Assembly: GCA_905178155.1 (NCBI GenBank)
Contig: CAJINV010000004.1
Coordinates: 5,268,258-5,332,257, forward strand
DNA: 64,000 bases
Direction: 5' to 3'
Source: Amoebophrya sp. A120
Taxonomy: Eukaryota > Protista > Dinoflagellata
The notes under the pieces were generated by a model. That model made no database searches. It was not told the origin of the DNA and saw only the letters and a program-made list of their open reading frames with translations. Each line of letters opens with the position of its first letter. Within the stretch, counting starts at the first letter, position 1. Positions 1 through 64,000 of the stretch are shown piece after piece. The position numbers were made by a program, and so were the translations under genes.

Positions 1-876
1 CATAAGGGCAAGGCTAAAGTAGGCTATACTTATTCGATCTATTTTGGTTTCTAGAGGGGGTAGCTAGTTTACCACAGCGCGCTCAGGAGGGGAGTGTGGT
101 AGGACGTTATCCAGATTAGCATCACCGCCGCAGCGATTGAGGAGGGGTGTTGGTCATGGAAATCGATCCCGCACACACGTAACACGATCGCCCCAAATGA
201 CGCCTGTTCCTCAATGAAATGACAGTTCTGAATGACCTGAACTAGCTAGATCCTTAGGGAAATGGTCAGAATCTATCTAGATCCTAAAGGAAACTCGTCA
301 CCATGTTCCGCGAATCCCCCAAATACTACGAAGGCAAAGCCATCAGGATCGTAGTGAAATGAATGGACTCAGCTCGGTCCAGACGTTCGGAATGGTCGCC
401 CTGGGGGACTTGACTCCCGCCAGGGTCGAGCACCAATCTGAGCAGGTTGAGGAGTGGACTCCCATGCTGTTTGGCCACTTGACTCTGACCAGGTTTGGTC
501 CATATGAATGCGATGAATTTGGATGAATTGAACCTACAGGATGTAACGCAGCAAGAGACTTGCGTCACTTGCTTGCTTACTTGCAATAGAGAGAATTCGT
601 TGAACTGCTGTTGATAACGAGCACAGTGGAGCAAACGTGTGTAAGTGTGTGCGAGTGTTCTCAAGTCCACTAACAATCCTCAATATGGGTGGCCACCTAT
701 AATTTTCCCAAAGTTTTCTGATAAATTGTCTAGTTGCTTCCAAGCTTGCAAAATCGTTTTTTTTTTCCCAAAAATATTTACCAATATTTGTCGTCTTTCA
801 TTCGATGCGAAACAGTGAGTGGCGCGCTGTCTTTTTCGTACAAAAATAAATGCCTTCTTCATCGATTTCCACGTCG

Positions 877-3800
877 CTAGGCAGTCGTGTGCGGGTGGTT
901 TCCTGCACCTACCGCGGTTTTCCCTCCGGCGTTCGGATCAATATCCTCCTCGCCGGAGTAATCTGTTTCGTATTCACTGGACGAATCCGAGGTATTCCCA
1001 GCAAGAACGCCGTTCACCGGCACCGCAAACCCCGCCCCCGCCTATCCTGAGTAACAACGTCCCCATGACCCCCCATAGTCAATGATGGCTGGGAAAATCT
1101 CTGGAAGAATACAGGTTGAGAAGTTTTGGGATGCAAAAATGGCAAGTTTATTTTCGCCGTATTGCAGTGCAGCTTAGCAAGGAACAAAGCCGTGGACGAT
1201 GACGATCACAAAGCTATTTCCTAAATAATCCTGTACGTTTAACATAGCATTAAAACTTCCAAAACACGATTGGGGGTAGGGATGCCTCCCTTGCCCTTGG
1301 GTATGCGCATTACAAGTACTGCTGTACCCTGTCATTCTCATTGCAAATCTGCATGACAACTGTGGTTCGGGAACGTTTTTACACGACAGGATAACGCCAG
1401 TCTTCGGTTTACATTCCTCACGGCCGGTGTCGAGGAGTAGGTCGTGCCCTCGCGATCCACTTTTTCCCGTTGCGCGGCCATATCAAATGCAAATATGTCT
1501 GGGTCTGGAAACTTGTAATGCTGCGCTGGGAATAGTGAATACTGATACTCTGTAATGCACAGGCAAGCATGACAAATATCTGCGCTTCTTTCTGTTGCGT
1601 TTTTCGCATGACAAACTGCGTTTTTGGATGACAGGCAAAAGGGTCTCTTCTTAGACACGCATCACAAGGAGCTTTTTGGTCATGCTAGACAAGCATGACA
1701 AATCTCGCAAGCTTCCATACGCAGACCCAGGCATATTTGCATTTCATAGGCCAGGAGTTTGCGCAAGTCCTCCTTCAGTGCGTTGTTCTGTTTTTGTTCC
1801 GGTGCAGAAGTCAACATCTTGGTCAACGAGCGCGACGGCGAGGTCCGTTGCTGCGAGCTAAATCGCGTCGGAGTCTGACCGGCAAGAAAGTAGTTCGCAT
1901 CTTGTTCGTCCCTACCGTCGTTTTTATTACCCAGCAAAGCATTCCGCCCGACCCAACCCTTGCCCGGGACCCGCTGCCAGCTGCCGTGATAGACAGATTT
2001 GGTTTCTTGGTTGAGTTTGCTACTTTTGCATTTGCTGTTTGAAGATAATGCATTGATGTTACTACTACCTCCAGCAGGTTCTTGGGGGTGCCGAGCGTCC
2101 GACGGAGTCGGAACGGTGGAGACCGGGGACGCGCAGCTGGACGAATGGTTGCAGTGGCTCTTGTTCCGCCCAAAAGGAGGTTCTGCGTTACAGTAGTTCC
2201 TCGGTGTAGTTGTAAGAGCTGCAGCACCGGTACTACGCCCCATGGACGTCGTCCTCGATGTGTTTAGAAGAGTTTTATTGCACGCCGTCCCACCAGCTGC
2301 TCCTGCAACCGGATGAACTTCATCTCTGCTGGTTGTAGTTGCTTCCTGGGTTGAAGTGGAGGTAGAACTAGAACCTGTTGTATGATCGTGTTTATTAAAC
2401 ACATCTTCAACACTACTCGTTCCTTTTCGCACCGCCTGGTCGAGCTCGCGTTCTTCCTGTAGTTCCCGCTCCTGGTGGCCCTGGTTCGCCGTGGCCGTCC
2501 CCGTGTCTGTGTCACTAGAATTATTAGAACCCAGGTCCGAAGAACAAATCTGCAGTTGGCTCACTCGCGATCGACGGGTGAGGGAAGTAGAGGAGCTGCT
2601 TGTGTAGTTTGTTCCAGGGAGATGAGTTGATGCGCTAGCGGTATTTTCACATTGTTGCCCTTGTTCCTCTCGTCGTGGTCCCGTTGTGCTTCTACTGCCC
2701 GCAGGAGTTGTCCTGGGAGGACTTGGACTTGCCACGGCCGCCGGGAGGTGTTCGTCACAACTGCTCAGGTCGTCAGTGGATAGTAGTACTTCGGTCCCAG
2801 GTACTACTGGCGTGTCGTTTTTTCCGTCCCCGTCCGGGGACGGAATATAATTACAGACCGTCCCGCCTCCCGCACCCGACGACACGCGCGTGGTGGTCTC
2901 TGACTCCGCGCCGGAGAAGATCATGGGCCGCTCGGGTCGGCTGTCAATGTGCATTTGGTCTCCTCCAGAGGGGTCGGATGCATCATCCTCCGCATCTCCC
3001 ACCCGCAGATGCAGTTGATCCAGCCCCTTCACCAGGAACCCAAAGTCCGCCTCGTTACGAGCGCGGTCTTCGACTTGTTGTTTGTGCGCTGAGGCTGCAC
3101 GCGGCTCGTTGTTGTTTTCATCTCCTGCCCGTACTTCTACTCGCGGTTGCTGATCCTCGTCGTGGTTCTCGACCGACACCGCTCCTACGCCCCCATCTTC
3201 ATGTGTTGTAGCAGGAAAAACCGCGGCCCTCGAGGACTCCTGCAGGCTCGTTGTGTGAGCCTCCTCCAGCATCACAGGAGCCTGTCTATTTTCCACTTGG
3301 TGCATCAGCTTCTCATAGTTCTTCATCTCTTCGGACGACGACTGATCCTCTGTCCGCTCTTGCTCGGTTCGGTCGAAATAACTGGAAGCGTCGTCAAGCT
3401 GTTGACCAACGTGGTCCTCGGGACTATCTGCTGTGCCGGCTGGTCGCGTCACATTAAAAATGTGGTCTTCAGATGAAAACAAGAAGAGATCACCTTCTTC
3501 TCCATCGACATTGTGGTTGTCCATGTCCTCCTCTTCCGGCTCACTGCTGGGACGCAGCTCCATCGGGTCTTCAAAGAGCTCGTCTGCTAAGTCCTCGATG
3601 TCGCCCGCGACCGCGGCGGCGGTCCCAATCACGCGAGGCTTGTTGTGCATGACAAGTGACTTCATTTTGTTCACGGCTTGTCCGCTTGGGTCATTACTAG
3701 CCGAGTCTCTCCCCCTGAAAGACGTCCTTGACGAACAGGATCGCGCGGAGAGGCAGCTCTAAAATGCAAAAGTGTCTGGGTCTGGAAAAATGCAACTTGT

Positions 3801-4868
3801 GCTGCTGCATTTGGATGTCTAAAAAATTCGTGTTGCATGAGCAGCAAAAGGAGTCTAATTCTTGCTACGCGGAGGGGGCATTTGTCATGCAGAATAGGCA
3901 TCAAGAATCCCTCAGAAAACCTGTGATGCTAGGGCATGCATCACAGACATCATGGCTCACGCAAACCGTGCATGACAAGTCTCAGAATCTTCCAGACCCA
4001 GACATTTTTGCAATGTATAGCAGCTGTGGTAGGTCGACTGGGAGACCGAGCGCTGCAAGGATTGCAAAAATTGGCTCTGCCGTGGTTCTGCGCTGCCGGG
4101 GGAATAGGTATCATCATGCTCGTCGGATTTTTTAGATGAAGTGCCGGAATTTCTTTTTATTTCCAGGTCGTCGTTCAACCTCGCTTCCATCTCGCTTCGC
4201 TTGGTGAGGAGCTGTGCCGTCAAGACAACGGGAGATGTGGCTGTGGTGCCTGTGCCACGACTTCGAACATTTTTAAACCATTCGGTACTAGTACATTCGG
4301 TAGTACTTCTACTGGTCCTCGCGGGCGTTCTCTGATCTCTTGCTGTGGTCTCCACCTCTTCTTCTTGAAGATGCTCCTGCAAGTGCGACGCCGGGGGCGC
4401 TGGGATCATTTCACCTTCTTCGTAACCCACGACGACTCCTTGTTGTGGTCGTCCTCCATGTCGAGATCTACAAGCTGTTTTGGTCGTTGTAATTGATGCT
4501 GCTGTCTTGTTTTCATTGTGGTCTGTCGCGACCGATGTTGGGACGGAACGACCGGAAGGTTCTTGTTCATCTCGACCTGGCCGCCCGGGCGAGGCAGCTC
4601 GCACAAGAGGGAAAGACAAGGAGGGTATTAATGTTGTAGTTTCACATTCATCTTCTTCATCGACCATAAAGATTTTTCCCATCAGCAAAGCAGTTACGAG
4701 GACCACGGCGGTAGTTGCAGTTCCACCTACAACGCAGCACGAAGTAGATTTCGACCGCACTTTTCCGCTGCAGGAGCTTCGAAGAGGACAACCTCGCAGC
4801 CGCGCCGGCCTTCCACACTCCTGCGTTGTTGTTCTCAATGAACAAGACGACCAAAAATTCCAGGACAT
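877..4868 (-). CDS. Spliced hypothetical low-complexity (S/T/E-rich) protein, ~1030 aa, 3 introner introns, hydrophobic segment near the N-terminus
   Basis: ORFs 3957..4889, 1680..3674 and 1338..1658 join in frame when elements 3758-4019, 1481-1748 and 1043-1393 plus one 5-bp repeat each are removed (3096 nt). First ATG at 4868, stop TAG at 877-879. Start is tentative. Confidence 0.7.
1043..1393. mobile_element. Introner family B (TIR TATCCTGAGTAAAAACGTCCCCAC)
   Basis: TAT..ATA, DR ccgcc/acgcc. Confidence 0.85.
1481..1748. mobile_element. Introner family A (TIR TATCAAATGCAAATATGTCTGGGTCTGGAA)
   Basis: DR ggcca. Confidence 0.9.
3758..4019. mobile_element. Introner family A
   Basis: DR gcagc; left end TCT. 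Confidence 0.9.
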
Positions 4869-6522
4869 GCCGGCTCGGGTCGGCGACACAATTTCGGTTC
4901 TTGATGGACGACAACAATGATGTTGGGCGGTGCTCGAGCTTGATGTTCTCGTGAGCTTGAGCAGTTCCAGTTCCGAGACTATATTACATTCCGGTTCTTC
5001 CGGTCAGCGCCAGTGCGGTCTATCAGAGCCCGAGGAACGAAGCGTGCTCCCGTACTTCTCGGAAGCTATTTCGGAAAAAAATCTGATGAAAATACTTAAC
5101 GTCATCATGTTTACATGATCTTCATGTTCATGCAAGTTAACCTGCGACTGCGAGCGTCTTCATATGCACTCGATCATTTTGTCGAAGAACAATAATTTCC
5201 TCCTGCTGATTTTTCATCTTCGCCCCACAGGCGCTCACCGACGAGGAAATGATCGCGCTTGTTTGTTCCCGTCCCTTATCGTAGGTTTGCTCCTCTTGCT
5301 CTTCTGAAATGAGAAAAAGATGGACATTTTTAGGGCCTTGAACATTTGATGCCGTGCCCGGGCACGGAAAGAAAGAAAGAAAGAAAGAAATCGACGGACG
5401 TAAATTGTACTGCAATAGTACTGCAATGCTTGCTCAATTTCAGGACTTCCACTGCCAATACAACGCCACAAAGATCAAAATAGCAGTACTGCAGAAGCAG
5501 CTGAAAATTGATTAAGTAATTCTTTCTTACTTTATTTCTGGTGACGCCGAAAAATTCAATTTTATTCTACATCTTCTCCAATGATTAATTACATTTGTGA
5601 TACAAAAATCCGTGGCTCTTTCTACCATCAAACTTGTACAAGAATAGGAAAAGCAACTAAAATGGAATAGGTACGAATAGCAAATGCATTTTGAAAAAAA
5701 ATCCGTCGCCGGCCATTGCAGCAATTCAAATCAAGATCAACAGAAACAGAAAGTGTTGTAAGTACGGAATTCGATACTTAGAATTTATTTGGCTAGGTCG
5801 TGTCTCACTTCTGGAGGTTTTTTCTTACGACAACGTGATTTTTTCTAAACAGATTTCTCGCGCGCCGGACGGCGAAAAGCTACTAGGTTCTTCAGGATTG
5901 AAGCTAGAGAAATGAAAATTGTCAACATTGATAAAGACAACGCGGAAGCGTTCGCGTTGCTGCAATAAAGAAACCATATGTATAGAAGTCCGTAAACCAG
6001 TCTTGTTTCAAATCTACATTGAGGAGTGCTAGTGTACTGGGTACTACGGGGCTTCTACTTACGCAAACAGTAAGACAGACACGGCCAAATTCGCGTCTTC
6101 GATTTGAGTTGCAAGCATTGATTTCAAGTATTCAGAGACAGAAATGAAGTTGTGAAGTATTAAAAGTGTAAGAAGATCATCGGGCTCGTCGATCATATTT
6201 GCTTTGTACACGAAAAGATGTGCAAAATTCATTTTTTTCGCTAGTAGATGATGAAAGAATGGATTGATACATTACGAGCAAAGACGAGGTCCGTTGCCTT
6301 TTGGTGTTAAGGACCTTGGAGGCACAATCGTGCGCCCGCCCATAGGCTAGATATACTTTTACTTGTTCTACTTGAAGTTGCTATAAACTGATTCCAATTT
6401 GTCCTCTATTGGCCGTAGCTGAAGCTGTGCCTTCGGGGAACATGAGTTTGAGGTAAAAATTGTGATTATCGCATGCCTTCCAGCTCGGAGTTGGATCGGT
6501 AAAACTAAAAATCTCGATCCTT

Positions 6523-9500
6523 TTAAAACCCCGTGGTCACATTATGAAAGTGCACAACTCCCACTCCCCCTCATTTGTATTGCGTGAACAGCAATACAAG
6601 CGTCAGCAAGAATACGGGTTTTGCGTGACAAATTTGGAAAGGAGTGTAGTGTTATTTGGGCTGCCACAACTTGTGATGCAAACAGTCCAAAGAGCCAAGG
6701 CGTCAATTAGGTATTTTGCATTACCAATGAGGGGGAGGGGGAGTTGTGCACTTTCATACACATCCGTGACGGTGTAGTTGATCTGGTACCCAGTCGACTC
6801 GTAGGCTTCGTTGCTGTAGAACTCGATGAAGAACGCGTTGGATTTTTCCGTGAACAAAAACTCGTTCGTTCGGTTCTCCCCGCACAGCAGTTGCCTCGGC
6901 GGCTGCCCCACGCTGCCCCGCCAAACGCCCTTCCAGATCAGAACCCGGTCGAACACGCACGACGGCGAGAATTCCAAGGTATCAAATGCAAACATGTCTG
7001 GGTCTGGAAAATTCGAACTTGTATGTAATGCTGGTCTTGCATTCCTGTGGAATTTGTATTGCATGACCAACAGAAGTAGTCATCATAGATACGTCATACA
7101 GAAACGCAGTTTCCCATGCGGGCTGCGCATAAGCCAGAGTCTTTGAAAGTTGTCATGCTTAGCTGCATTCGGAAGTGTTTCGAACATCCACACTTTAGCA
7201 TCACAAGTTCTTGCCTGACGCAGATATATTTGTATTCCATACACGTCCATGAAATCCAAATTAAAGTGAAACATGTAGTCCCGTGTCTCGAACGTGGTCA
7301 ATTCGATGTAGCACGCCGTGTTGGGGTTGTACCGCTGCTGCGGGTTCGCCGATTTTGTGTGGGACAAAAGCCCGCTCCACCGGTCCCACCCGATGGTCTG
7401 GTTGGTCAAGGGGTCTACCCGTAGCGGGCGGATCAACCGATGCCGGTCCACCTGAGGCGACGCCAAGCACGGCGTCGGGTCGTTCATCACCGTGCGGCGG
7501 ATCGGGTACCCCGGAAAGGTCTCGGCGGAGTGGAACAGGAATTGAGGCGGAACAATCTGTAAGCAGGTACAGGATAGAAGACCGTTGACGAGACAAAGAA
7601 CGTAGAATCATGATGAAAGTCTCGATCTATCTGCAGCTCGCTTCTTCCACAGAAATGCAAATGCCAATGCGCAGAGGACATTACCAGATCTTCGATGAGG
7701 TGGAAAATGTAAATGATCCAACATCAAACCTAACCGACAACTACAAACTCTCCTTTGATATATATGCATTATACCTGCTCCACGCCGTCGGGCGTCTTCC
7801 ACTTCAGCCTGAGAATGGCAGCCCGGGTCAAGTACGGCTCTCGGTAATCCAGGTTCCTCGCTACGTAGTACTGGTATTTCACTGAAAGCGCGTACAGCTG
7901 CTCCTTTGTCAGGTAGACCGAACGGGAGACAAACGTGTCAAACAGCTGCGTGGTGCCGTTAACGAGCTGTTTTTATAGTAATGTTAGCTTTTCTTTTGGT
8001 GTAGAGACACTTTTTCGGAACATGAAGATCATCACTTGAGCTAATATTCTAAAACAATTGAAATTTATAAAATTACCTGGTCCCGATTCGGATCGGACTC
8101 CACGCCGAACAGCAGCGCGCCCTCCAGGAAGACCTGCGCCTTCCCAAATACCTCCAACTTAAACTCATAGGTGCCCGAGACACCGGGAATCAAGTGGCCC
8201 GTGAATTCCTCTTCATCGTAGTCGCTGGTGTCCTGCGCAATCATGTAGCGCACACTGTCCACCACCTCGGCCCGGGCTCGGGGGTCGTTATCAATTGCAA
8301 AAGTATCCGTATCGTACTAGTGGTAATTGAAATTACAATTTTCAAACTAGCAAAACACGATGACAAGAATAAATGGACTTGTTCTATTCCATCGACTGCG
8401 TTAAAAACTAAAAAAAAAGATTTGCGCGTAGCACGAGTACGATACAACTTTTGCACAGGATACTCGTTGCGGTCTAGCAACTCGGAACGGTAGGTGGCGC
8501 GCAGCTTCAGACCAAACTGGCGCTCGAACCCACACGCCATCTACAGAATTTTTGTGTTTTTAGATAACGTGCAATTCTAGAAAAAGTTTATTTTCCGAGA
8601 TTTTCTTTTTTGCAAGTAAGTAAGTACCTCCTATGAAAGTAGTAATTTCGCCTCGCTCTACTTCTGGCCGCACGAGAATACAAAAAACGCCCAACGTACC
8701 GGCACGAAATTTGGCCTGATGGTCCTCAATCCGAGCCCGTCTTCCGTTTCCGTGAAGTTCACACTCGGATCCATCACCGCGGTCGTGTAGTCCGAGGCCA
8801 CCCACTATGCAAGCAGAAAAAACTGTTTCACTGTACACTTTTGATGCATGATAGAATGGAACACAGACGCATTTGTCTTGCAGCTACATATGCAACTGCA
8901 AGACATTCGCTTTCTCGCATGGCAAGTTTTCGTTTTCACGGACGCTGCGTGACGCAAGTAACTCACAAAATCCTTACGGGTAAAACTACGCTTTTTTCTC
9001 ACGATACCCACCGGCGCCACTTTCCCGGAAAGGTACTGTCGTCCTGTGCGGTGCAGACCAGCTCCGGGTCCCCGTACACCATTTCTTTGCGAATCGGACA
9101 GGACAAGCTGAGGCGCGCCCCGTAGGTGAAATACAGGTTTGGGTCGAAGTAGGTCAGAATGTTCTTGTTTTCCAAGTCCTCCATGTTTGGATCGATGGCC
9201 GGCGCCGGGCAGAAATTGCTGATCAGGCCGCAGCTGTCCACGTTGGGGATACTGGCCATGGTGGTGGGGCAGTTGGTCTGCGGACCGATGATGTTGGACC
9301 AGAAGCCCTGTTATAAGAGTGCGCATCAACGAACTCCCCCTCATTTGTCATGCAAAACGCCTTCTAAAAATCCACCCTTTGCATGCCCTGTGGCGCTGCT
9401 TGCGCGACAGATTGTGCCCGAACAAGCGGAAACAGCACTGGAAGCGGTCGCGAATTTGTCATGCAAAAGCTGCACTTGTGCCAGCACTTGTGTTGCTGTG

Positions 9501-12500
9501 GATGCCATCCAAATGAGCGGGAGGAGGAGCTATGTGCACTCTCATACCTGTTCCACGCCGTTCACAATATCCCACGAAAAAAGTGTTACAGTTACACATT
9601 TGTAGTCAATTCAGCAACACAAATTTCTCTGCATCAGAGAGAAGACTTGTAATGCAGAAATCCTACGGGAAAACACCTATGAAACGAGGCTCCTATGCAT
9701 ATCCGGCATGACAGAGCTTGTCTGTCTTGCTTGGCCTGCAACACAATGTGTAACTGTAACACTTCTTTCTTCTTGCGATACACAACCACGACGCAGCACT
9801 GGTACACCATGCGGTGCGCGATCAGAGGCTTGTGCGGCGTGTATCGTGAGTAAAAACGTCCCCACACAGGAGTTGCAATGCAAATCTGCATGCTGGAAAT
9901 GTTTCTCATGCGGAGACCCATGCGAAGCAGTCTCTAGTCGTGTTGTGGGATTTGTGATGCTAGAATCAGCATGATATGCTAGATCTGTGATGCTGCTGAA
10001 CAAGCTAAACAGGATTACACTGCGAGGCCAAACTTGTCATGCGCAGCAGCAAAAGCTGACAGATTTGTCTAGCAGATTTCCCAGCTTGACTCTGGTGTGG
10101 GGACGTTTTTACTCAGGATAGCGTGTACGCGCGGTTCAGCTCGTATCCCATCTTGCACTGCATGAACGCTTTGGAATTCAACGACCGGTCTAGGGGGAGA
10201 AGGAAGTACCTGCGGAAAGGAAATGTTAAACTCATACATAAGGTCGAATCGGTCGAATCTTATTCTGCAGGAGGAGCTGCAAAAAAAGCATAAAGTAGAG
10301 AAAACAGAAACACCCCTAATATTTTCTCGTCGTATAGTGATAGTTGTACTACTCGTTTTTATTCTATACCCTTGCGAGTTCGGCGTGATTGTGCTCAACA
10401 TGGGGCACACTTCCTTACTCCCGCTGCAGGCCAGGGGCACGCCGGGGATGCCGTCCGCCTGGATCCAAATCCCGACGTAGTTGCCGGGCGTGGGCTCCGC
10501 AACGCCGCAGAACAGCTGTGACGAGCCGAAACTGGGGAGGTACCCAGTGAGACACTGGAAACTGATCATGGCGCCCATCGGGTTCAGTGCGGCGCCCGTC
10601 ATCACCGAGTACACAAGCGTCTCCGCAGCGGGGGCCACACAAAAATCGGTGCGGGCCGTGCACGCAAAGTGCGGGCCGGCGGGGGGCAGCGTGGCGTTCG
10701 CTTGTATCGACCTTGCAAACTACATCGAGATGAGCCTGGGTCTGCGAAACCTTGTCACGCAAGTCAGCGAATCTTCGTGACGAGCACACTGTCACGCTCA
10801 CGCACCGCGAAGCATGACAGGTTTTTTCGTGGCTCTGTGTTACTTATGCAGCATGAGTTCTTGAGAACCACTGCGCGTTTGCACGACAGGCAGGCGAGCT
10901 CTTCGCAGCTACACAACTATACAGAGCTTAGAGTCAACATGATGCCAAACCTGCATGACAGGTCTCGCAATCTTCCAGACCCCGATCTTCGCTGTTTGCA
11001 CTGGATAGTTTGGTTCACGATCCAATACCCGTCGTGCGCAAACTCGCCGACCTTTTGGTTGTGTGTTTGCTCGATTTTGAATCCATATCAATTCTCGAAC
11101 GAGGTCCTCAAAACGACCAAGCATCAAACACTTCAGCAGCTTAAGACGACTGCACTGCAGCATGATCCATACGACGAACAAAATCGAAAGACGATGTTCT
11201 TGAGCCAGATGATTTATTCGAAATATCGAGCCTGCAAGATGTTGACGAAGATGCACGACAGCAAACTATGTATAGATACATAGTCCAACAACGCGGTCGA
11301 AATTGAAAGTAGAATATACCTGATAATCCGCCGGCCCGGTCCTGGTCGTGAAAGTGGCGTTGCCCTTGTAGTGCTCACACCGTAGGGTTTGAAACGGCTG
11401 CGGGCTGCGCTCAAACGCGGGCAGGCACTGGGTGTAGGCGGTGTCTGCCAGTTTCTGCACTCGGTTTTTCGTGGTATCGTAAGGAAAAATCCCCCCTTCC
11501 CATATCGATAAGGCACACCTCAGAAAATTTGCCATGCTGATTTGTGACCACAAATCGCATTTGTGACGCAAGAAAGCAACGCCACAGGCTCCGCTCCACT
11601 ATCTTCATGCAGGCGGTTTGTAATGCTGTTGGGCCTACGGCATAGACGTTCCTCATGCTAAGCGCCTAGGCCAAAACCTCTCGACTCCGGCACCATATGG
11701 GCCTGCAGTCCTCTGCTGCAAGACAAATCTGATCTGTGTGCGCAAATCCAGCATCAGAAACTTCGTTTCGATGTGGGGAGGGGGGATTTTTCCTTCTGAT
11801 ACGTGGTCCCGTGCACCAACTGCGGCAACGGGCAGTACTGTTCGATCGGCACACAGGAGAGCAGTTGCGCGTTGCGCAGGTTCGTCCCCGTCCCGGTGCG
11901 CGTCTTCCAGACGCCCTCAAACCCACAGACCACCTCGTCGTCCCCCGCGTACCGGACAAACCCCTCGGCGCACGCTCGCCGGTAGATCGCGCCCAACCCC
12001 CGGCCGCCATCGAAGAGCACGGTGTAGGAGGCGGAGGTGGGAATCGCAGGGCAGAAGAAGGGGTCGAGTTCGCAGTGCATGGTCGCCGCCACCTGCTGAA
12101 AAGCGACCGAGTACCACAGGCCCTGGGTGCCCACCAAATTCATGTTGCACATCAACTCCGCGTCCCCGTACTTGCGCACGTACCCCGCGTTGCAGCCCAT
12201 TTCGGCCCGCGTGTCCAGCCCGCGCGCGTTGTTGGGCGAGTCGTAGTATGGATTGCAAATATGTCTGGAGGGTCCGGAACGATACAAGGTTTCTCATGCA
12301 CATTTTGCATGACCCAGGATGTCTGTAATGCATGCCCCTCCATCACAGATTTTGTGAGGGCTTCCTGATGCCTATACTGCATTACAAATGCCCTCTGCGC
12401 GGGGCAAGAGCTGGTCACTGGACTGCGCTGGCTGCTCATGGTGCAATACAGATTTTAGTAGGATCGAAAGGCCGCATCACAAGTTTGCATCCTTCCAGAC

Positions 12501-51500: not shown

Positions 51501-54500
51501 AGCATCGGTCCTCGTCCAGCAGGTTGGGGTTGTCGTGGTTGTTGGACCGGTCGCAGAATCCATCCGCCATCGCCTGACGCAGGCAGTCGCGCGTCTGTTT
51601 CTCGCGGTTCAGCGGGTCATAAAGCCAGAACTTCGCGTCCGCGGGCTCCGTTCCCGTCGCCTGCACCACGCTGGCGCAGTTATCCAATGCAAATATCCCT
51701 GGATGTCTGGAAGAGTTCGAACTTGCGATGCGTGTTTCGGATCCTACAAAGATCTGCGATGCATATCGTGCAAAAGGTGCTCACTTCTGGCCATGCTGCG
51801 AGGCCATTTCTCATGCAGAACAGGCTTCACAAAGGGGCTGCACATCCTGTGATGCTAGGCCCCGCATTCCAGACTTGGCGGAGCTTGGAAAAACTGCATG
51901 ACAAATCTCGGAATCTTCCAGAGGACCCAGACATATTTGCACTCCATAGCAGTACTCAGTGTACAAGTCCGTGTGATCGTACACCTTCACGAGGTTCTAT
52001 GAGAGTGCACAACTCCCCCTCCCCCTCATTGGTATTGCATGAACAGCAACACAAACGCGAGCGACCCTGGAGCCTGTGCATGACAAATTTTTTATGTACC
52101 TACTGTAGTATTGTTTCGGCTTTTGAATTTTGTCATGCAGACACTGCCACAGGGCAGCGACCGGATTTGGGATTTTGCATGACAAATGAGGGAGAGGCGG
52201 AGTTCTGCACTGTCATAGGTTCGACCCGGTCACCTCGCGGCACGGGCTATTCGCCGCCTGGTAGTCGCTGCACCGATACGGCTGCGTGCAGTCGTGGTTC
52301 GCGGGAATCGCCGCCAAAGCAAAGTCGCAGCATACAGACACCAAGTGCAAGAACAGGCCGAGAAAATAGAGCGCCGCGCAGAAGTTGTTCTTGAAGCCCG
52401 ATCGTGGAGGCGGGATGAAGCAGAAGCTGCTGCGTTTTTTATTATTTCTTCCCGTAAAAGTAAAACTACAATTACGACCCATCAAAGGAACAGTACAACT
52501 TCGACTATCCACTTTCATCGTGTGATTCTTGATCTCCGTAAGCTTCTTCTTCCTGTCGTTCCTCATCCTTTCCGTCCTAGCCAACACAAAGTTGCTTCCG
52601 TTGTGCACCTGCTGCCCTGGTGGTCGTGAAGTGATGAATTTGTGCAGCTCCGATCGGGTAGTTCGAACAGCTCGTCCTCCACAGAAAAGAGCACCTCGCG
52701 ACGACCTCCATTGGTCCTCGTGCACGAACTGGTCGTGCAGCCCACCTGTAGAAGTACTACTTCTTAGTACAACGCTGGTCCTCGTGAAGGGGACCATTCT
52801 CGCCACGCGTGCCCGATGCGCCTTGTCCGAGGCCGAAGACAGGGAAGATAGGCTCGCCTTGGTTGTTTTATTTCCGCCGTTGAAAGTAGTAGGACAAGGG
52901 ACATCTTCACGATTTCGATCCTCACTTGCTACGCCGCTCTTGCTGCGACAGGAGAGTTGTTGTCGGTTAGAAGTAGTACAACTTCTTCGCGCGGCTCGGT
53001 TCTCAAAGAAGAAGATGCCTCTGTTTGACGCGGTTTCGAAGTGGTGCTGGCTCTCGTCCTGAATAGCGCTTCTAGCTTCGTGGAGAAGGAGATGTTGTTG
53101 ATCTCTTGCACCAGCAGCTCTTGCACAACTTCTAATAGAGAAGATCGTTCCTCTTGCAGTAGTAGATGCAGCAGCTTTACTAGACCAAGGGCAGCAGCTG
53201 TTGTCATCTTCATCTGTTCTTGTTCTACCGTAGTTGTCGGGAAATGATACAACCTGGGGCGGGTAGTGGATGAAATTGTCGGCGACCCTTCGACCCTGCA
53301 CATCGTCGCCCAGCCGGGCCGGGATCACGTCGAGAGTGGATGAAACTGAAAGAAACCTACTACTAATACTCCGGTCGTCTTCATGAAGATCATTGCGCCG
53401 ACTTGTACTAGGAGACGGACCTCGGGGAACTGGCGGCAGCACGTAGGCCGCCGAGGGGATCTTATTTTCTGGTGTTCGGAAGAATTCCGCCTTTGGTCGA
53501 CGTGAAGATGATATAATTTTTATCTTCCTAGCTGTGTTGTTACTACAACATCGAAAAGAACCTCGTCCCGATCCGATTTCATTCGTCCCCACTGGAGCAG
53601 CGGGACGAGCTTCTTGTTGCGCAAGAAGAACTCCACAAATGATCCTTTGACTTTCGCCTGCTGTGCCTCTGCTGCACGACCCGGCTTCTCGTAAGCACGA
53701 GGTAGACCAGCAGCTCTCGATCACTACCATATGCTCTTCGCTCCTTGTTCCCCTTCTTTGACGGAAGATGCTGGTCGTGTGGCGGTCGTTGAAGACTTTA
53801 TTCTTTTCCATTTCTCCCGCCAGTTCTTTTTGTGCCGTGGAAGAACTACTAGAGCAAGGCGAAGTTGTTCGTGTTCGTATAATTCTTCGTGCAGGTCTTT
53901 GCAGTTCTGTGGCTGCTGTAGAACTGTTCTCCAAGATGAACTCGTTCTCCGCATCGCTTGCTCCCGCCCGTGCCGGCAGATCTTGACCTGCACCAGAGCT
54001 GCTGGGGATGTTGAGATCTGGCCTAGATAAACTAAAAGTCCTCGTGTTCAACGTGCCACCTTTGTGGTTGCTCAACACTTCTTGTCGTGATAGAGGATCT
54101 AGTCCAGCTTGTAATTGTCCACCTGTGGGAGGTCCTAGTCCTTGTACAACTTGGTCCGCTCCGACGTGCGGCCGCTCGTGCTGGCCACAAGAAGTAGTAG
54201 AACGCTGCCTTCTACTAGAACACGACGAGCTTATTGTTCTACTTTGTGTGCCTAATTTCATGTTCGGCAAGAACATCAACATCAGAAGACCACACGCAGC
54301 ATCCGCATTATGTTCTCTGTAGCAAGCGCCTCGTTCGACGTATCCACTAGCACGACCATGCGCGACGACCATAATATGATCTTCTCCAGCTCCTGCGACA
54401 CCGCTTGCGTTTTTCTTTTTCTTTTCACACTGCTCGCAGCTAGTTCTTGATTTACTATCGCGGACACAAATTATCTTGCCATTTCTTCTCCCCGTGCAGT

Positions 54501-56963: not shown

Positions 56964-57899
56964 TATTTCTACAAGGATCTTATCACTTTGATGCTTGTCC
57001 TTGTTTGTTGCAAGATGAAGAACCCCGCTCCTTTTTGAAAAGCAAGTGGTTTCTTACTTACTTACCCCAACAAGCAGGACCTAGCTACGACAGAACCTCC
57101 ACAACCCGTGAAGCTCCTGCTGTTGCTTTGCATCTGTGCAGCTGCCCATGTTGATCCCACGTCGCCCGTCCAGATTATAACTGCCGATCGCGTGGTGGTC
57201 TTCTCCAAAAGCGGCGGCCTGAAGCAGGACCACCTGCACGTCCTCGCTCCGCCCCCCACAACGGCCTCCACGCCGGGTGTAGTGCAACAAGAGATTGACA
57301 CACGGATGAAAACAACCCGGTGACTGATAGCTGGTGCTCTGGCCCAACAACAACGAGCAGAACGACAACGACCGCCTCCACCGATCTCCTGATATAATAA
57401 TTTCACGATCTAGCACAAAAGAACTACCCAGGCTGCATTTATTTTTGTTGGGACAAGATCTTCAAGTACCTGTACCACGACGGGCACATCAATAAAATGA
57501 AAATGCGAGAAGAACGAAGTAGAAGAAAAAGATGCAATAAAAACCGATTCACACGATCTTCCAAGAATGTTGAACTCGGAAAACAAATCAATCTTTGCCA
57601 AAAATTATTTCTTCAGTAAAACTCGGCGCAGAAGTGTCTTTGTAAAAAAGCTTCTGTCGTCTGGCCACCACCAGATTCCTCGAATGGAGTCCGCTTACGT
57701 ACTTGGTCTAGTTCAACAGCCCACAGACGAACTGCATCGATCTCGTCCACAAGAATCGATATAGTACTTTATTCATTCTAAGTTGTTGTACAACTTGTGT
57801 TTGTAGTATTTATTACTTAGCACGGAGCTGCAGCACGCCCCTGCGTTCTAAAAATAATACTTAAACTGCCAGTAAACTTTCGGAGTACAGGACTACAAC

Positions 57900-60800
57900 T
57901 TACAGATCATTCCTGTCTCTTGCCGCCGTCAGAGCCCGGCGACTGTTGTCTACGATGGCGTCGATGCGAAGCGCGAGAATGTGCAGCACGTGTCCATTCC
58001 CAGTGCCGATGCGGTGCTTGATGTTCATCGTGGCCCCACTGGAATATCGTAGGAACCGGTAGTGGCTGGTGCAACCATTGACCACGTAGATGTGGCTTTC
58101 GCGCTTCTTCGGTGCTGGCGCCATGTCGAACGTCTCTCCGCTGGCTGCCATCTCCAGTTGCAGCCCGCCCTTCCGGTGGCCCCAGCCCTGGTCCTTCCAG
58201 TCCACAAAAACGCGCAGCCCCAGGACCCGGCCCGCCGGCAGCACCACCTCCGCCGCCGTCCCGTTCACCAGCAGTGGGCGAAAATCGTCGAAGAAGTATA
58301 GCTTGCAAATATGTCTGGGTGAGTTGTGACGCATGTCAGTGACTAAAAAGTGCACTGTAGAAGTGCGCCGCCAAGCATGACAAGTTTTCTCGTGCTTCTG
58401 TGCTGCGTATTCCTAATGAGAAACTGCGTTTTTGCACGACAGGCGAGAGAGGCTGCTTCTAGCTGCCACGCAATATTACAGAGTGCGGAGAAGTCATGCC
58501 AGACAAGCATGACAGGTCTCGCAATCTTCCAGACCCAGACAGACACATTATATTTGCAGTCGATAAGAAGGGGGGGCCGTCAATGTAAAGCTCGTGGGCA
58601 TTGCTCACCGACGCAAACTCGAATATCAAATGTAAAAATGTCTGGGTCTGGAAGGGTGCCAGCCTTGTCATGCAGGTTTTCCATGACCCATGAGGTCTGG
58701 TATGCGGGACATAGCATGACAGATTATGTGAGAGTTCTATCATGCCTATCCTGCACGGGAAACTGCCTCTCGATTACGTCAAAAGTGGACAGCTTTTGGT
58801 AACAATGCAACACAGATTTTTACATGCTTCAGATTTAGCATGACAAGTTGCTTTGTTCCAGCAGACCCAGACATTTTCGCATTTGATATCGAACAGCTTC
58901 ACACCATAGTGGGCGAGGTCGTAGTAGGTGTCCAGATTGTCCGCCGACGGCACGCGCCGCGCAACGGCGTCGAAGCCGGCCAGCGCGGGCGGGTGGAGGT
59001 CGGCCTGATCCTCCAGTATCTGGATCTCTCAAAAGGAAAAATCCCCCCTCCGCCCCATATCGGAAACGAAACTTGTGCCGCTGCATTTTTTGAGAAGTAC
59101 ACAACTCGACTTGTATTGCTAGAAGGCCAACAAGAGCCGCAGCTGTGGCCTCGTTTATTGCAGGCCATTGGTCATGCTGTTTCCCACTTCCAGCTGCCTC
59201 CTGTCGTAACATACTGAAGACGCAAGGCTTTCCCACGCCACCCGGCACTACAGCGCGCATCTTTTCCCTTCTAGCAATGACATTGTGACCACAAATCTGC
59301 ATCACAGATTTCCGTTTTGATATCATGGGAAGGAGGGATTTTTCTTCTTGATAGGATCCCGCACACGTTTAAAATCTCCGTAGCGCCGGGCGCTCCGACG
59401 CGCGCCGTGTCCCACGCAACGTAGAATTCCCGCACAACCCGCCCCAGCAGGGGGATTATCAAATGCAAATATGTCTGGGTCTGGAAAATTGTAATGCTAA
59501 AAGTGAATGATAGACGCACTGCAATGCGCAACTATGCATGACAAATTTCTTGGCTGCCATGTCTTACGTATTCCGGATGGCAAAGTGCGTTTTTGCATGA
59601 CAGGTAAGTGGGCCTTTTCGTGCCTATGCAACACAGATTCTCGAGTCATACCAGACAAGCATGACAAACTTGCATTCTTCCAGACCCAGACATTTTTACA
59701 TTTGATAGGGATGTCCACGTAGCGAAAGGCGGGGTCGTACAGGGTGGCCACATTCACGGGGGCCGTCACGGAAGCATCCGCGGGGTGGGCCACGCTTTGA
59801 ATGCGATCGGGGTGGGCCGGGTCCAGGTTGCCCAGCGCCGTCTCCTCAGAGGCATCGTTTCTCACATAGACTCGTGCTTTCTTGAGACGGTTCTCGCGCC
59901 CGCTTATTGCGAGGAAAAATTAAATCCCCCCCTCCCCATACAGACGAGGCACGCCTGCGGCGATTCGTATGGATTGCAAAAGTGTCTGGGTCTGGAAGAT
60001 TGCCAGGTTTGTCATGCAGGTTTTCCATAACGCATGAGGTCTGGTATGTAGGACATAGCATGACAGATTCTGCGAAGCCTTTCCAATGCCTATCCTGCAT
60101 GAGAAACTGCCTCTCGATTAGGTCAAAAGTGCACAACCTTTGGCAATCATGCAAGACTGTCTTTTGCCTGCTTCAGATGTAGCATGACAAGTTGCATTCT
60201 TCCAGACCCAGACATTTTTACATTTGATAGTTCGTTTGCAGTGCTGATTTGTGACCACAAATCCGCCCCGTCCTATGCAAGAAGGCAAGCCCACCGGCTC
60301 CGCCGCATTATACCGGCGGTTTGTGATGCTGTTGGTCCTTCAGTGTAGTCATACTGGGCGGGTATGTCAAACCCTCTCTGCTCAGGCTTAGCATATGCCT
60401 GCAGTTTTTCTACTGCAAGACAAACCGGAAATGTAGTGCTGTAAGCAAATCCAGCATCAGAAATTTCGTTTCGGTGTGGGGAGGGGGGTTTTATTTCCTT
60501 TTGGTAACGCTCTTGCCCGCCTCACTCGTGTACGCAGCCCCGTAGTTGTACAGCCGCCAAATCGCGACTGCGCGCTGCCCGCCCTCGGAATCCTTAAACT
60601 TGGCGAACCAGTAAGGTGCGCCGTCGCCCTCCGCCGAGTGCCAACAGCTGCCGTGCCGTGTCGGGTTGGGCGACATGTAGAAGGGGAGCCCCGTGCCCGT
60701 CTTATCGCGAGGAAAAATCCGCGCCGCGCCCCATATCGACGAAACGGCACGCCTCAGAAACTTTGCAATGCGGATTTGTGGCCACAAATCGCGTCTGTCT

Positions 60801-63800
60801 TGCAAGAAGGCAACTCCACAGGCTCCGCCGCATTATGCCGGCGGTCTGTGATGCTGGTGGGCCTACAGAAAAGACGTTTCTCATGCTAAACGCCTAGGCC
60901 AGCCCCTCTCTACTCAGGCGTGATATGGGCCTGCAGTCCTTCACTGCAAGACGCAACTGATTTGTGTACGCAAATCCAGCATCAGAAACTTCGTAGCGAT
61001 ATGGGGAGGGGAGATTTTTCCTTCTGATACGTCTGCGTGGTGTGTTGCGAAGCGGTCGCGTACCACCGCGGGGTCGTTTCCCCCAAGTCGTTCACGCCCT
61101 CCGAACTTATGCAAGAAAAAAACTGTGTAAGTGTAACTCTGTAATGCAAAACAAGCAAGAGAGTTACTACACCTGGCATGCCAGACAGCCATGAAGTCCT
61201 CTTTCCATGTGTGTTTTCCCATTCCCTTACAACCCACGCATGACAGTTTTTCTCTGTCATGTAGAGCAAATCTGTGATGCTGTCAGCCAAAGAAAGTTAA
61301 TACACTAACGCAGTTACTTTTTATTTTCTTGGATAGAACTTCGCCACGAGCTAAGGTCCCCCTGCCCTACCATCGGTGCGGCGCCGTTGCAGGCGGGGTT
61401 CTCCATGGAAACCTTGGTGGGGGTCGCCCCCGGCGCGCGTCGGGGCCACGAGTTTGTCCGCCGCACAAACGTCGAGGTGGTGCTTGTGCTCGTGGTGACA
61501 GGGGGTGGTGCCGCCGTGGCTGTCGGTACCGGCGTGGTGCTGGTTCTTATATGCATTGCAAAAGTATCGAAATTGTAGCAATTGCAGCCATGGCGCATGA
61601 CGAATCCCGATGCTTCAGGTTCAGCATTAAACCACCATTATAAATGCTATTTCTCTCCTTCAGAAAAGAACTTGTGACGCAAGTTATATACCAGTACGAT
61701 ACTTTTGCAAGTATGCATATGTTGACGTGACAGACAAATCTTCGTAGATCCAGATGCCACACCAGCAAAGGCTTCCGTCCAGCCCCGGACCGGAGGTCGG
61801 TCCGGCGATTTGCAGTTTGTGCAGCCACTTGTTCACCGGAACCCAGACGCCATCGGCAGCCATGACAATCCCAGACGTCATCACGGCGGTGGGGGCTTCC
61901 AGCAGGACGCCGTTCTGATCGTAGTACTCCAAGGACGCGTAGGATTGGAAATTATTCTTACAGGCATCGTTGTCCCCCCGTTTGAAAATCATGAAACCGC
62001 TAACGTAGTGGAGCGCCCCGTCGCGAAACTCTGCGGCCCAAAACTGCCTGGAGAGGCCTCCGCGTTGCAGCTTCTATCCACTGCAAATATGTCATGTCTG
62101 GGTCCTCTGGAAGATTGCAAGGTTTGTCATGCAGGTCTCGCATGGCCCATGAGGTCTTGAATGCAGGGCCTTGCATAACAAATTCTGCAGTGAGGTCTCT
62201 ATCCTCCGTATCTTCCTGCATGAGAAACTCCCTCTCCACTTGCACTTGGTCGAAGCAAGGTCGGAAGCTTTTGCTAATCACGCTGACGAAACACAGATTT
62301 TTGAATGATTCAGATTCAGCATGACAAGTTGCAGTGTTCCAGATCCAGACATATATACATTTGATAGGTTCAAACACACACTGATGTCCGAGGCGATTAT
62401 ATTGGTCCCGGACCCCCATCGTATGCAAGAAAAAAGCTGTGATGTAGGTGTAACTCTGTAATGCAGAAAATGCAAGAGAGTTACGCCTGTCATGCCAGAC
62501 AGCCACGCAGTCCTCTTCCCATGTGTGTTAGTTTTCCCTTACAAGCCACGCATGACAGGATTTTTGTTTCATGTAGAGCAACTCTGTGATGCTGTCAGCC
62601 AAAGAAAGTTACACTAACACAGTTTTTTTTCTTGGGTACCTCGAGAGGAAAAATCGTACTCCGGTCTCAGCAACACCTGCGCCGCTGTGACCCAAGCGGC
62701 GCCCGAGAATGTGGCAGACAGAGCTCGCACCGAGACAAGCGTGCCGACCATAGGCTCGGCTAGCAGGTTGCAGTCGCTCATGCGGTAGTAAACGAAGTCC
62801 GGGTTGACGGAAGGCGTGCAGCCATCCTGAAAAAGCCAACACTCGCCGTTGCTTCCTATTGAATGTAAAAACGTCGTGGCTCCCACCCTGGACTCAAGTT
62901 CTTGGAAACTTAGCAACACAAATGGTCCAAAAGCTTTGGAAGTAACGCATGGCGCATCACAAATTCTGTCAATCTTATACTTTTTATACTTATTAATACA
63001 GCATTACAAATTCCAAAACACGACGTAGAAATGTCGCTCATGCTCATGGGGATGCGCATTACAAACGTTCGCGTACCTGTACATGCAAATCTGCCTGACA
63101 AGAACTATGGGCGGGCGGGAACGTCTTTACTGAGGATAGTTCTCGTGAAAAACCCACCGCAATTTGGGGTGTTCGCGCACTGGTAGCGGCACTCGGCGAC
63201 GCTGTAAACCCGATCGTTGTAATAAATGCCCGACCCGAGCTGCTTGTCGTTCATATTCGCGCAGGCGCCCTGGAAGGTGGAGGGGCAGGAGGTCCCATCG
63301 ACGCGGGGCACGTACGCCTTACACTTTGCCTGGTTTTGCGCCATACTCCAGTGCTGCCATCCTGCCGCCGAGGATTGCGTACAGCCGTCCACAAAGTACA
63401 TAGCCTGCGCCTGCCCGTTGTTCTGGTTGCGAAACATCGCCACGCAGTTGTTGTCGTAGCCGCGGCCCCGACAAAACAGGTCGTAGTCGGTAATCTTGGT
63501 GTTGGCAACATTGGTCTGGTCCACCGTGGCAATGTCACTACCCGCGATCGCGAGGGAGTTAAATTCGTTGCACGCCCCGCCCCACACCGCGGGGCAAACG
63601 CGGCCCTTCAGCTGACACTGATTTAAGGAGTATTTTCTCCACCACGGCCCAATCCACCACGTGCAGCCCGAAGAGAGAAGATCGCACGTACTGCCTGCGC
63701 CTGTGCCGACAATGAAGTCCGCGCAACCATCCGTCATCGCGCACAGATACCGGCACTCCTCCTTCGAGTAAGGTCGGTCTGAGAAGAGACCGACCCTTTT

Positions 63801-63932: not shown

Positions 63933-64000
63933 ATAGGGATAGCCGGAAGGTTGAGGCTAGTCCCCAATTACTGCGCAGATTCTTAGCATTCACGGTATGC

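What the first reader, a model, noticed from the sequence alone, without database searches (positions are those of the whole stretch)
1043..63138. Mass invasion of coding sequence by TAT...ATA inverted-repeat elements that must be removed precisely without GT-AG signals
Seen: 88 elements in about 13 TIR families, nearly all flanked by a 5-bp direct repeat and located inside reading frames. At every junction translated by hand (gene 877-4868, 6523-11300, 27800-28730, 56631), deleting the element plus exactly 5 nt restores frame and domain motifs, and the boundaries carry no conserved GT/AG. Known: non-canonical inverted-repeat introners are reported in Amoebophrya, and to my knowledge their excision mechanism is unresolved. 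Inference: a DNA-transposon-derived class paired with a dedicated removal system, either non-standard RNA splicing or programmed DNA excision similar to ciliate IESs.
Basis: partly seen in the sequence, partly recalled or inferred. Interest (0 to 1): 0.92.

Follow-up and report, generated by a model that had tools for sequence, protein, structure and literature searches.

The report
Amoebophrya introners cut at fixed register
These 87 hairpin-ended transposon copies inside genes are the already published introner elements of the marine parasite Amoebophrya A120; the addition here is that the junctions we could test all fit one fixed cut, one base before and four bases after the element, which likely points to an altered spliceosome rather than DNA excision.

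Summary
There are 87 TAT...ATA elements in about 14 families; 58 have a perfect 5-nt direct repeat. Exons are 100% identical to proteins labelled Amoebophrya sp. A120. The elements are the A120 introner elements of Farhat 2021; a 5-bp TSD with TA/TA termini is in Gozashti 2025. The class is known.

Removing element+5 nt is the only size that fits 29 of 29 annotated junctions, and it opens 22,725 nt without a stop across 63 elements.

Farhat left the cut position unknown. Imperfect repeats resolve it: 16 of 29 were testable (one tentative) and all fit one register, N|TAT...ATA-NNNN|, in transcript direction. Two relatives inserted in opposite orientations both fit, which argues against DNA excision. 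This register keeps T+2 (86/87) and A+3 (87/87), as in the local GTA donors, but has no G+1 or AG rule. An altered spliceosome is likely; no lariat data exist here. The scan noted similar hairpin introns earlier in other protist genomes.

The parts
1481..62366 (-). Largest family, 36 elements of about 230-290 nt (TIR core GTCTGGGTC). Starts: 1481, 3758, 6980, 12247, 13092, 16448, 17456, 18583, 20426, 21221, 21494, 23341, 24004, 26679, 27846, 28472, 31636, 32909, 33589, 35005, 35699, 36031, 37631, 37945, 38931, 46629, 47521, 48417, 49277, 51681, 56631, 58297, 58624, 59457, 59968 (nested), 62075
   Evidence: the first 20 starts printed; the other 16 by exclusion from the list
9842..63138 (-). 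Family of 14 elements, 274-301 nt (core AAAAACGTCCCCAC). Starts: 9842, 22906, 25457, 31040, 33246, 35353, 36884, 44077, 44924, 45916, 46293, 47184, 51086, 62857
8289..61719 (-). Family of 7 short elements, 149-174 nt. Starts: 8289, 16259, 25983, 30270, 37214, 50684, 61550
6543..52217 (-). Family of 5 elements, 216-237 nt. Starts: 6543, 9312, 22554, 26410, 51998
27348..44714 (-). Family of 5 elements, 241-269 nt. Starts: 27348, 28174, 29629, 34633, 44463
9568..62638 (-). Family of 5 elements, 210-228 nt. Starts: 9568, 23709, 29998, 61108, 62422
11475..61029 (-). Family of 4 elements, 326-327 nt. Starts: 11475, 25030, 59027, 60703
32075..50484 (-). Family of 3 elements, 300-328 nt. Starts: 32075, 45264, 50185
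1043..36558 (-). Six singletons: 1043-1393, 8806-9006, 10705-11007, 15229-15552, 29403-29577, 36352-36558
59905..60506 (-). Element of 602 nt with a second element (59968-60229) nested inside; the annotated protein is joined across the whole outer element +5 nt
39257..44026 (-). Element of 4,770 nt: a host of about 292 nt carrying two unrelated TIR insertions (39420-43393 and 43452-43945). The frame continues across it; splicing not seen here
10701..11008 (-). Example of the inferred intron under the resolved register (element start-4 to element end+1): begins CTATCC, ends GATACAAG on the transcribed strand
6523..55071 (-). Giant host reading frame of a predicted surface protein (Sushi, PA14, weak LamG and Filamin hits); 22,725 nt stop-free from 11320 to 55071 after removal of 63 elements. 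Annotated in pieces (GSA120T00000862001, GSA120T00000866001)
57903..63956 (-). Host gene GSA120T00000868001 with 11 outer elements
880..5003 (-). Host reading frame with 3 elements, stop-free after element+5 removal
7557..11319 (-). Five ordinary GT-AG introns in the same transcript (about 7557-7773, 7972-8076, 8544-8698, 10210-10368, 11054-11319); all begin GTA, three GTAT

Best explanation
These are the published Amoebophrya A120 introner elements: short non-autonomous TIR transposon copies with a 5-nt target duplication that are absent from the annotated proteins and likely removed from the pre-mRNA at one fixed register by an altered U2-type spliceosome. Step 1 (anatomy shown; enzyme inferred): an integrase-like DDE transposase of the Ginger/IS3EU kind, acting in trans, inserts the element in either orientation and duplicates 5 nt. 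Step 2 (predicted): in the transcript the TIRs pair into a long stem that brings both ends together. Step 3 (size shown; register inferred from 16 junctions, assuming one common rule): the cut falls 1 nt before the first TAT and 4 nt after the last ATA. The intron reads N-TAT...ATA-NNNN; the mRNA keeps positions 1-4 of the upstream repeat copy and position 5 of the downstream copy, so the original codons return exactly. Step 4 (inferred): the 5' site is the local GTA(T) donor with G+1 relaxed; the 3' site is set by distance from the stem, not by AG; the invariant A at -7 is the candidate branch point. Because both ends read TAT, either orientation splices, which would explain why the elements can saturate exons. 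My odds: known class 0.97; RNA-level removal 0.92; common register 4 0.8; spliceosome as catalyst about 0.6.
For: Identity: 100% matches to three proteins labelled A120; the A120 motif TAT-N7-AAA is at one end or both in 74/87. Size: only +5 fits 29/29 annotated junctions, -1 to +11 tried; four contig ends in RNA-guessed runs fit +5 and not +2 (21216, 22549, 25977 twice). Register r (bases of the upstream copy kept): lower bound 4 at 10705, 61550, 62075, 62422 and tentatively 25030. Upper bound 4 at 8289, 59905, 62857, 25457 and 20426, 21221, 22554, 25457. r>=2 or 3 at 6980, 13092, 17456, 26679; r<=1 creates a stop. Chance under a random register is about 3e-4. Paralog P0003 independently has the r=4 residue at 61550, 62422 and 62857. 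Relatives 6980 and 13092 lie in opposite orientation and both give r>=3. At r=4: T+2 86/87, A+3 87/87, T+4 80/87, A-7 87/87; 5/5 ordinary introns start GTA. In the yeast P complex U(+2) pairs with U6 A51, while G(+1) pairs with G(-1) and A(-2) with the branch A (10.1101/212811, passages), so losing G+1 and AG together while keeping U+2 is coherent. A120 has most spliceosome proteins and U2, U4, U5, U6, with U1 not found. All 9 top A120 and all 9 top A25 non-canonical sites have T at +2 (Table S4). Stem: 84/85 elements have 10 or more predicted end-to-end pairs; z -4.2 and -8.1 for two examples. Weak hints: AG at the r=4 end in 5/29 imperfect against 2/58 perfect repeats (one-sided p 0.039, one of five registers, uncorrected); the third base varies in 7 5' ends and 0 3' ends (p 0.016, post hoc).
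Against: No lariat, branch or knock-down data. TAT conservation is equally expected from transposase end recognition (3' end 84, 85, 87 of 87), so it need not be a splice signal. No junction has mismatches at both positions 4 and 5, so r=4 rests on one shared rule; 13 of 29 imperfect repeats were not testable. The lower bound of 4 comes mainly from annotated proteins, which derive from transcript alignments, not from reads seen here. Paralog P0003 has K at 62075, matching the downstream copy, where the annotated protein has N. Table S4 may reflect aligner sliding: annotated A120 families mix gt/at starts with ag/ac ends. No visible +1/-1 covariation. The stem would hide both ends (terminal pair probabilities 0.66-0.75). 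A branch at -7 is unusually close; the nearest case seen is the putative Stentor branch A at position 10 of 15 (PMC9505925, passages). X4 and X5 are RNA only by the tool's guess, depth 3-6, and may not be independent of the annotation.
Confidence: 0.55

Rival explanations
1. RNA-level removal at the same register but without the spliceosome: a structure-specific endonuclease and ligase recognise the TIR stem and cut at fixed offsets, as proposed for euglenid non-conventional introns or as in tRNA/IRE1-type splicing (these enzymes recalled, not from a call).
For: A long end-to-end stem in 84/85 elements; no G+1 or AG rule and no +1/-1 covariation; U1 not found in A120; TAT is explained by transposase needs alone; euglenid introns also have TIRs and TSD-like repeats.
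Against: The cut lands where NTA(T) mimics the local GTA(T) donor; T+2 in all listed top sites of both strains although their TIRs differ (with the aligner caveat); weak AG drift at the 3' end. U1 is missing although GT-AG introns are spliced in the same transcript, so the spliceosome itself must already differ.
Confidence: 0.28
2. Programmed DNA excision in the style of ciliate IESs: elements are cut out of the genome in some life stage and transcripts come from the edited DNA.
For: TIRs, a TA-starting boundary and precise removal of one repeat copy. The joints table showed only 15 of about 3,200 rows, so rare element-free DNA joints are not excluded. The life stage of the published DNA was not stated in the passages read.
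Against: The register follows transcript polarity in two relatives of opposite orientation; a symmetric cut cannot give a fixed 4/1 split. The DNA-like run X1 has 8 of 8 listed long pieces overlapping elements at depth 40-49, seven running exon-into-element with 0 differences; none of its 15 listed joints skips element+5. The published junctions were validated as introns by RNA-seq.
Confidence: 0.05
3. Removal is RNA splicing, but the cut slides within the 5-nt repeat and r=4 is only the commonest or an annotation-driven outcome.
For: Farhat describes splice sites as variable relative to the hairpin (Fig. 3 legend; Fig. S23 legend); the paralog residue at 62075 matches the downstream copy; only 4 firm lower bounds at position 4.
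Against: At an imperfect repeat an aligner must follow the transcript; 16 of 16 testable junctions agree, p about 3e-4; contig ends and protein agree at 25457; the paralog agrees at 3 of 4 informative junctions.
Confidence: 0.12

Closest known systems
Introner elements (IEs) of Amoebophrya sp. A120 (Farhat et al. 2021, PMC7789003)
   Same: Same organism label and gene models; TAT-N7-AAA inverted repeats, 5-bp direct repeats (Fig. S19 legend), many families, non-canonical ends, RNA-seq-validated absence from mRNA.
   Different: No difference in kind. The paper leaves the border unknown or variable; here one fixed register fits all 16 testable junctions. Its intron analysis stopped at 1,000 bp, whereas one element here spans 4.8 kb.
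A120 introner family 38, classed Ginger-like (Gozashti et al. 2025, PMC12130899, dataset sd07)
   Same: '5-bp TSD, TA/TA termini', TIR DNA element in the same species.
   Different: Family 38 is about 810 bp with ORFs similar to LTR-element sequences; the elements here are 149-351 nt with no ORF, and no sequence comparison with family 38 was made.
Ginger2/Tdd, IS3EU/GingerRoot and IS481EU DNA transposons (PMC10045372, passages)
   Same: Integrase-like DDE group with TA..TA or TNT..AYA termini; Ginger2 makes 4- or 5-bp TSDs.
   Different: IS3EU/GingerRoot make 6-bp TSDs; no transposase was found in the window, so the superfamily is not assigned.
Non-canonical MITE-derived introns of Fritillaria borealis
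   Same: TIR/TSD transposon-derived introns, mostly not GT-AG, attributed to the spliceosome.
   Different: There the sites are fixed dinucleotides (AG-AC, AG-AT); here both the first base and the last two bases come from the variable target site.
Euglenid non-conventional introns
   Same: End-to-end stem, TSD-like repeats, no GT-AG.
   Different: No pyrimidine|purine junction rule and no CAG/CTG at +4..6/-8..-6 here; T+2 and A+3 are near-invariant.
Ciliate internal eliminated sequences (recalled)
   Same: Transposon-like inserts in coding sequence removed with one repeat copy.
   Different: IESs leave the DNA; these are present in the DNA-like run and the cut follows transcript direction.

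Membership tests
Amoebophrya A120 introner elements | Occur in the A120 genome | tested here: met
   Exons 100% identical to GSA120T00000862001, 866001, 868001
Amoebophrya A120 introner elements | Terminal inverted repeat starting TAT, 7 nt, then at least three A | tested here: met
   74/87 at one end or both; 61 at the 5' end, 60 at the 3' end (definition)
Amoebophrya A120 introner elements | 3-5 nt direct repeat overlapping the exon/intron borders | tested here: met
   5 nt; 58/87 perfect, 81/87 at least 4/5
Amoebophrya A120 introner elements | Repeated in families | tested here: met
   14 groups at 60% identity; best pair 94% identical
Amoebophrya A120 introner elements | Absent from mature transcripts | tested here: met
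   29/29 annotated junctions; exon-only contig pieces ending at repeat edges in two RNA-guessed runs. Indirect: no stranded raw reads of this strain were laid
Ginger-like / IS3EU integrase-type DNA transposon | TA..TA termini with a fixed 4-6 bp TSD | tested here: met
   5' TA 86/87, 3' TA 82/87; TSD 5; family values
Ginger-like / IS3EU integrase-type DNA transposon | Autonomous copy with DDE integrase-like transposase sharing the TIRs | not testable with these tools
   No genome held; ORFs in the one long element were read by eye only and none looked like a transposase
Canonical U2 intron | GT...AG ends | tested here: not met
   Possible in any register for 3/87; at r=4 for 1/87
Canonical U2 intron | U at +2, purine at +3 of the donor | tested here: met
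   At r=4: T+2 86/87, A+3 87/87; confounded with TIR conservation
Canonical U2 intron | Lariat through a branch adenosine | not testable with these tools
   Candidate A at -7 in 87/87; no paper on a lariat in this organism found (one search listed one review)
Euglenid non-conventional intron | End-to-end stem | tested here: met
   (predicted)
Euglenid non-conventional intron | Pyrimidine|purine junctions; CAG/CTG at +4..6/-8..-6 | tested here: not met
   At r=4 intron base +1 is a purine in 51/87 and base -1 a pyrimidine in 47/87; +4 is T
Ciliate IES | Absent from a somatic genome | tested here: inconclusive
   Present in the DNA-like run at depth 40-49; most joints not shown; other life stages not tested
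Ciliate IES | Cut independent of transcript direction | tested here: not met
   4/1 split follows the transcript in elements of both orientations, one informative pair

The most novel reading that the evidence does not exclude
A120 runs a spliceosome that has given up U1, the G at +1 and the 3' AG altogether. It reads the transposon's own hairpin, cuts at N|UAU, branches at the invariant A of the terminal AUA and measures a fixed 6 nt to the 3' site, so any insertion of these elements, in either orientation and up to 4.8 kb with nested transposons, is silent.
Probability: 0.33. Interest if true: 0.88.

Novelty: already known. Interest (0 to 1): 0.45.

Why it matters
The class is published, but how tens of thousands of these introns are removed is an open question (stated in PMC7789003 and the 2024 review PMC11282704). 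The published work could not place the border inside the direct repeat. A fixed register names the two scissile bonds and a candidate branch A, so lariat RT-PCR primers and a genome-wide test can be designed directly. It also gives a simple annotation rule: this gene is split into several models, and an exon at 33862-34632 found no longer protein in the database (weak evidence). If the spliceosome reading is right, it would be a natural spliceosome working without both terminal dinucleotide rules.

Tried and rejected
Element+2 (NT..AN, suggested by Table S4 and frame-equivalent to +5): rejected; it fits 0/29 annotated junctions and not the four contig ends. Register 1 (ends A+N, which would give AG in 28/87): rejected at 8 junctions and by a stop at 26679. 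Nearby GT-AG alternatives: 33/87 have some frame-keeping GT..AG within 12 nt of both ends, 7 of exact size, but the annotated junctions match exact +5 removal. Selection toward G at intron -1: the downstream copy is G in 7/10 position-4 mismatches, but it is also G-rich at other positions (19 against 8 overall), so this is not claimed. 25030 is synonymous at protein level. Run X7 (RNA, raw reads) laid only 17 partial reads on element ends and was uninformative; no holder was on record as RNA. Only one read-laying was obtained, so position 4 is not confirmed on reads beyond the tentative 25030. No longer protein found for exon 33862-34632, so six imperfect repeats at 33589-37945 stay untested. 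No whole genome was held, so no search for the transposase, U1 or U6. No earlier scan notes on this genome. Literature searches; none of the passages read states a fixed register, but figures (Farhat Fig. 3, S19-S23) are not held, Roy 2023 and Henriet 2019 were seen only as citations, and files 13-14 of the Gozashti supplement were not searched.


Full report
OBSERVATION. A scan for TAT...ATA pairs with inverted ends and inspection of leftovers gave 87 elements: 79 kept from 124 picked rows and 8 added by eye. 85 are 149-351 nt, one is 602 nt with a nested copy, one is 4,770 nt. They fill 43% of the window. The flanking repeat is 5 nt: 58 perfect, 23 with one mismatch, 6 with two; exact repeats of 3, 4, 6 or 7 nt occur in none. 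My filter used the repeat, so I ran an independent null: 47 strict hits against 0 in each of 50 shuffles. There are 14 groups at 60% identity (9-30 by threshold). In all five family sets tested, members lie in both orientations relative to the transcript. All host frames are on the minus strand.

FRAME AND SIZE. Removing element+2, +5 or +8 opens long frames; other sizes do not. With +5, 11320-55071 gives 22,725 nt without a stop across 63 elements, provided at least two bases of the upstream repeat copy are kept. Exon queries returned three 100%-identical proteins labelled Amoebophrya sp. A120. Testing removals of -1 to +11 nt, only +5 reproduces their sequence, at 15/15, 11/11 and 3/3 junctions. 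Contigs of two runs guessed to be RNA are exon-only pieces that stop at repeat edges; four ends fit +5 and not +2. GT-AG is possible for 3/87. Five ordinary GT-AG introns lie in the same transcript.

WHAT IS KNOWN. Farhat et al. 2021 (PMC7789003; I read the abstract, sections 10-12, 16, 20, 25, 32, passages, and supplement legends and Table S4 rows) describe these elements: A120 inverted repeats start TAT, seven bases, then three or more A; direct repeats are 3-5 nt; 29,850 copies; introns validated by RNA-seq; U1 not found. 74/87 elements here carry that motif. Gozashti et al. 2025 (PMC12130899; passages and 23 of 58 A120 rows of dataset sd07) list A120 family 38 as Ginger with '5-bp TSD, TA/TA termini'. 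So the class, the repeat length and the transposon origin are in print. The G3 2025 paper (PMC12005148, passages) says strains Kv and AT5 use GT-AG and that Kv has U1.

WHAT THE WINDOW ADDS. With a perfect repeat the cut position is invisible, and Farhat's Fig. 3 legend calls the border unknown. The 29 imperfect repeats reveal which copy is kept. Let r be the number of upstream-copy bases left in the mRNA. From proteins: 6980 r>=3, 8289 r<=4, 10705 r>=4, 13092 r>=3, 17456 r>=2; 59905 r<=4, 61550, 62075 and 62422 r>=4, 62857 r 1-4; 25457 r<=4. From contig ends, read with the tool's leftmost-joint convention: 20426, 21221, 22554, 25457 r<=4; 26679 r>=2; 25030 probably r>=4, since its piece has one other letter while the other 12 exon pieces listed have none. 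All 16 fit r=4 and no other value fits all; chance under a random register is about 3e-4 without the tentative case. 13 imperfect repeats were untested. A paralog at 83% identity agrees at three junctions and disagrees at 62075. No junction is bounded on both sides of 4, so a shared rule is assumed.

MECHANISM. At r=4 the intron is N-TAT...ATA-NNNN. Base +1 is G 34, C 24, A 17, T 12; +2 is T in 86, +3 A in 87, +4 T in 80; -7 is A in 87; the last two bases are free. Local ordinary donors are GTA in 5/5. In the yeast post-catalytic spliceosome U+2 pairs with U6 A51, whereas G+1 pairs with G-1 and A-2 with the branch A (10.1101/212811, abstract and passages). A spliceosome that keeps U+2 and drops G+1 and AG together is therefore structurally coherent; this is inference. 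The predicted stem joins the ends in 84/85 elements and could stand in for U1 and for AG scanning. All 18 top non-canonical sites in Table S4 have T at +2, but BLAT and HISAT2 placed those borders and annotated families mix registers, so this is compatible evidence, not proof. The main weakness is that TAT is also what the transposase needs. A nuclease-ligase route remains plausible (0.28).

DNA EXCISION. A 4/1 split is polar. Elements 6980 and 13092 are relatives in opposite orientation and both have r>=3; an element-oriented DNA cut would turn 4 into 1. The DNA-like run shows exon-element junctions at depth 40-49. Only 15 of about 3,200 joints were displayed and other life stages were not tested, so rare excision is not excluded (0.05).

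MOBILITY. TA..TA termini with a 5-bp duplication sit among integrase-like DDE transposons: Ginger2 makes 4-5 bp, IS3EU/GingerRoot has TA..TA with 6 bp (PMC10045372, passages). No transposase is evident in the window.

EARLIER NOTES. Six scan notes on other genomes describe hairpin introns without splice signals, and one reports a 3' site fixed by position after a hairpin. They are unchecked here and came after my reading was formed.

VERDICT. Real, correctly described, and already known as a class. The fixed register is a modest new result that I did not find in the passages read, and it makes the open mechanistic question directly testable. Interest 0.45.

Noticed in passing
window 39420-43393: 3,974-nt insertion inside an introner, with TIRs matching at 64/75, an 8-bp target duplication (hAT-like by recalled rule) and two arrays of a 62-73 nt tandem unit; no clear ORF.
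   Followed up: partly
window 43452-43945: 494-nt TIR insertion (CAGG..CCTG) flanked by TA (Tc1/mariner-like by recalled rule) in the same introner, containing telomere-like CCCTAAA copies at 43823 and 43851.
   Followed up: partly
window 54980-55053 and 56290-56363: Perfect 74-nt direct repeat around a 1,236-nt insert. Removing the insert plus one copy joins the frame from 57053 to the 52225-55071 ORF (1,083 aa); no GT-AG placement within the repeat. Possibly another non-canonical intron type, a recent insertion or an assembly artefact.
   Followed up: partly
window 6523-55071: One frame of more than 7,500 codons (Sushi, PA14, LamG-like, EGF-like Cys-rich part) that the public annotation splits into several models; a signal-peptide-like hydrophobic stretch lies near 52,400, after a long low-complexity open frame.
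   Followed up: partly
window 9547-9567 and 16410-16447: Micro-exons of about 21 and 38 nt between adjacent elements; both are present in the annotated protein.
   Followed up: yes
window 59905-60506: An introner inserted inside another introner, with its own 5-nt duplication; the order of removal is unknown.
   Followed up: no
window 1043-63138: All families share short internal motifs of the form GCATSACA/TGTSATGC in many copies, which may be transposase or splicing-factor binding sites.
   Followed up: no
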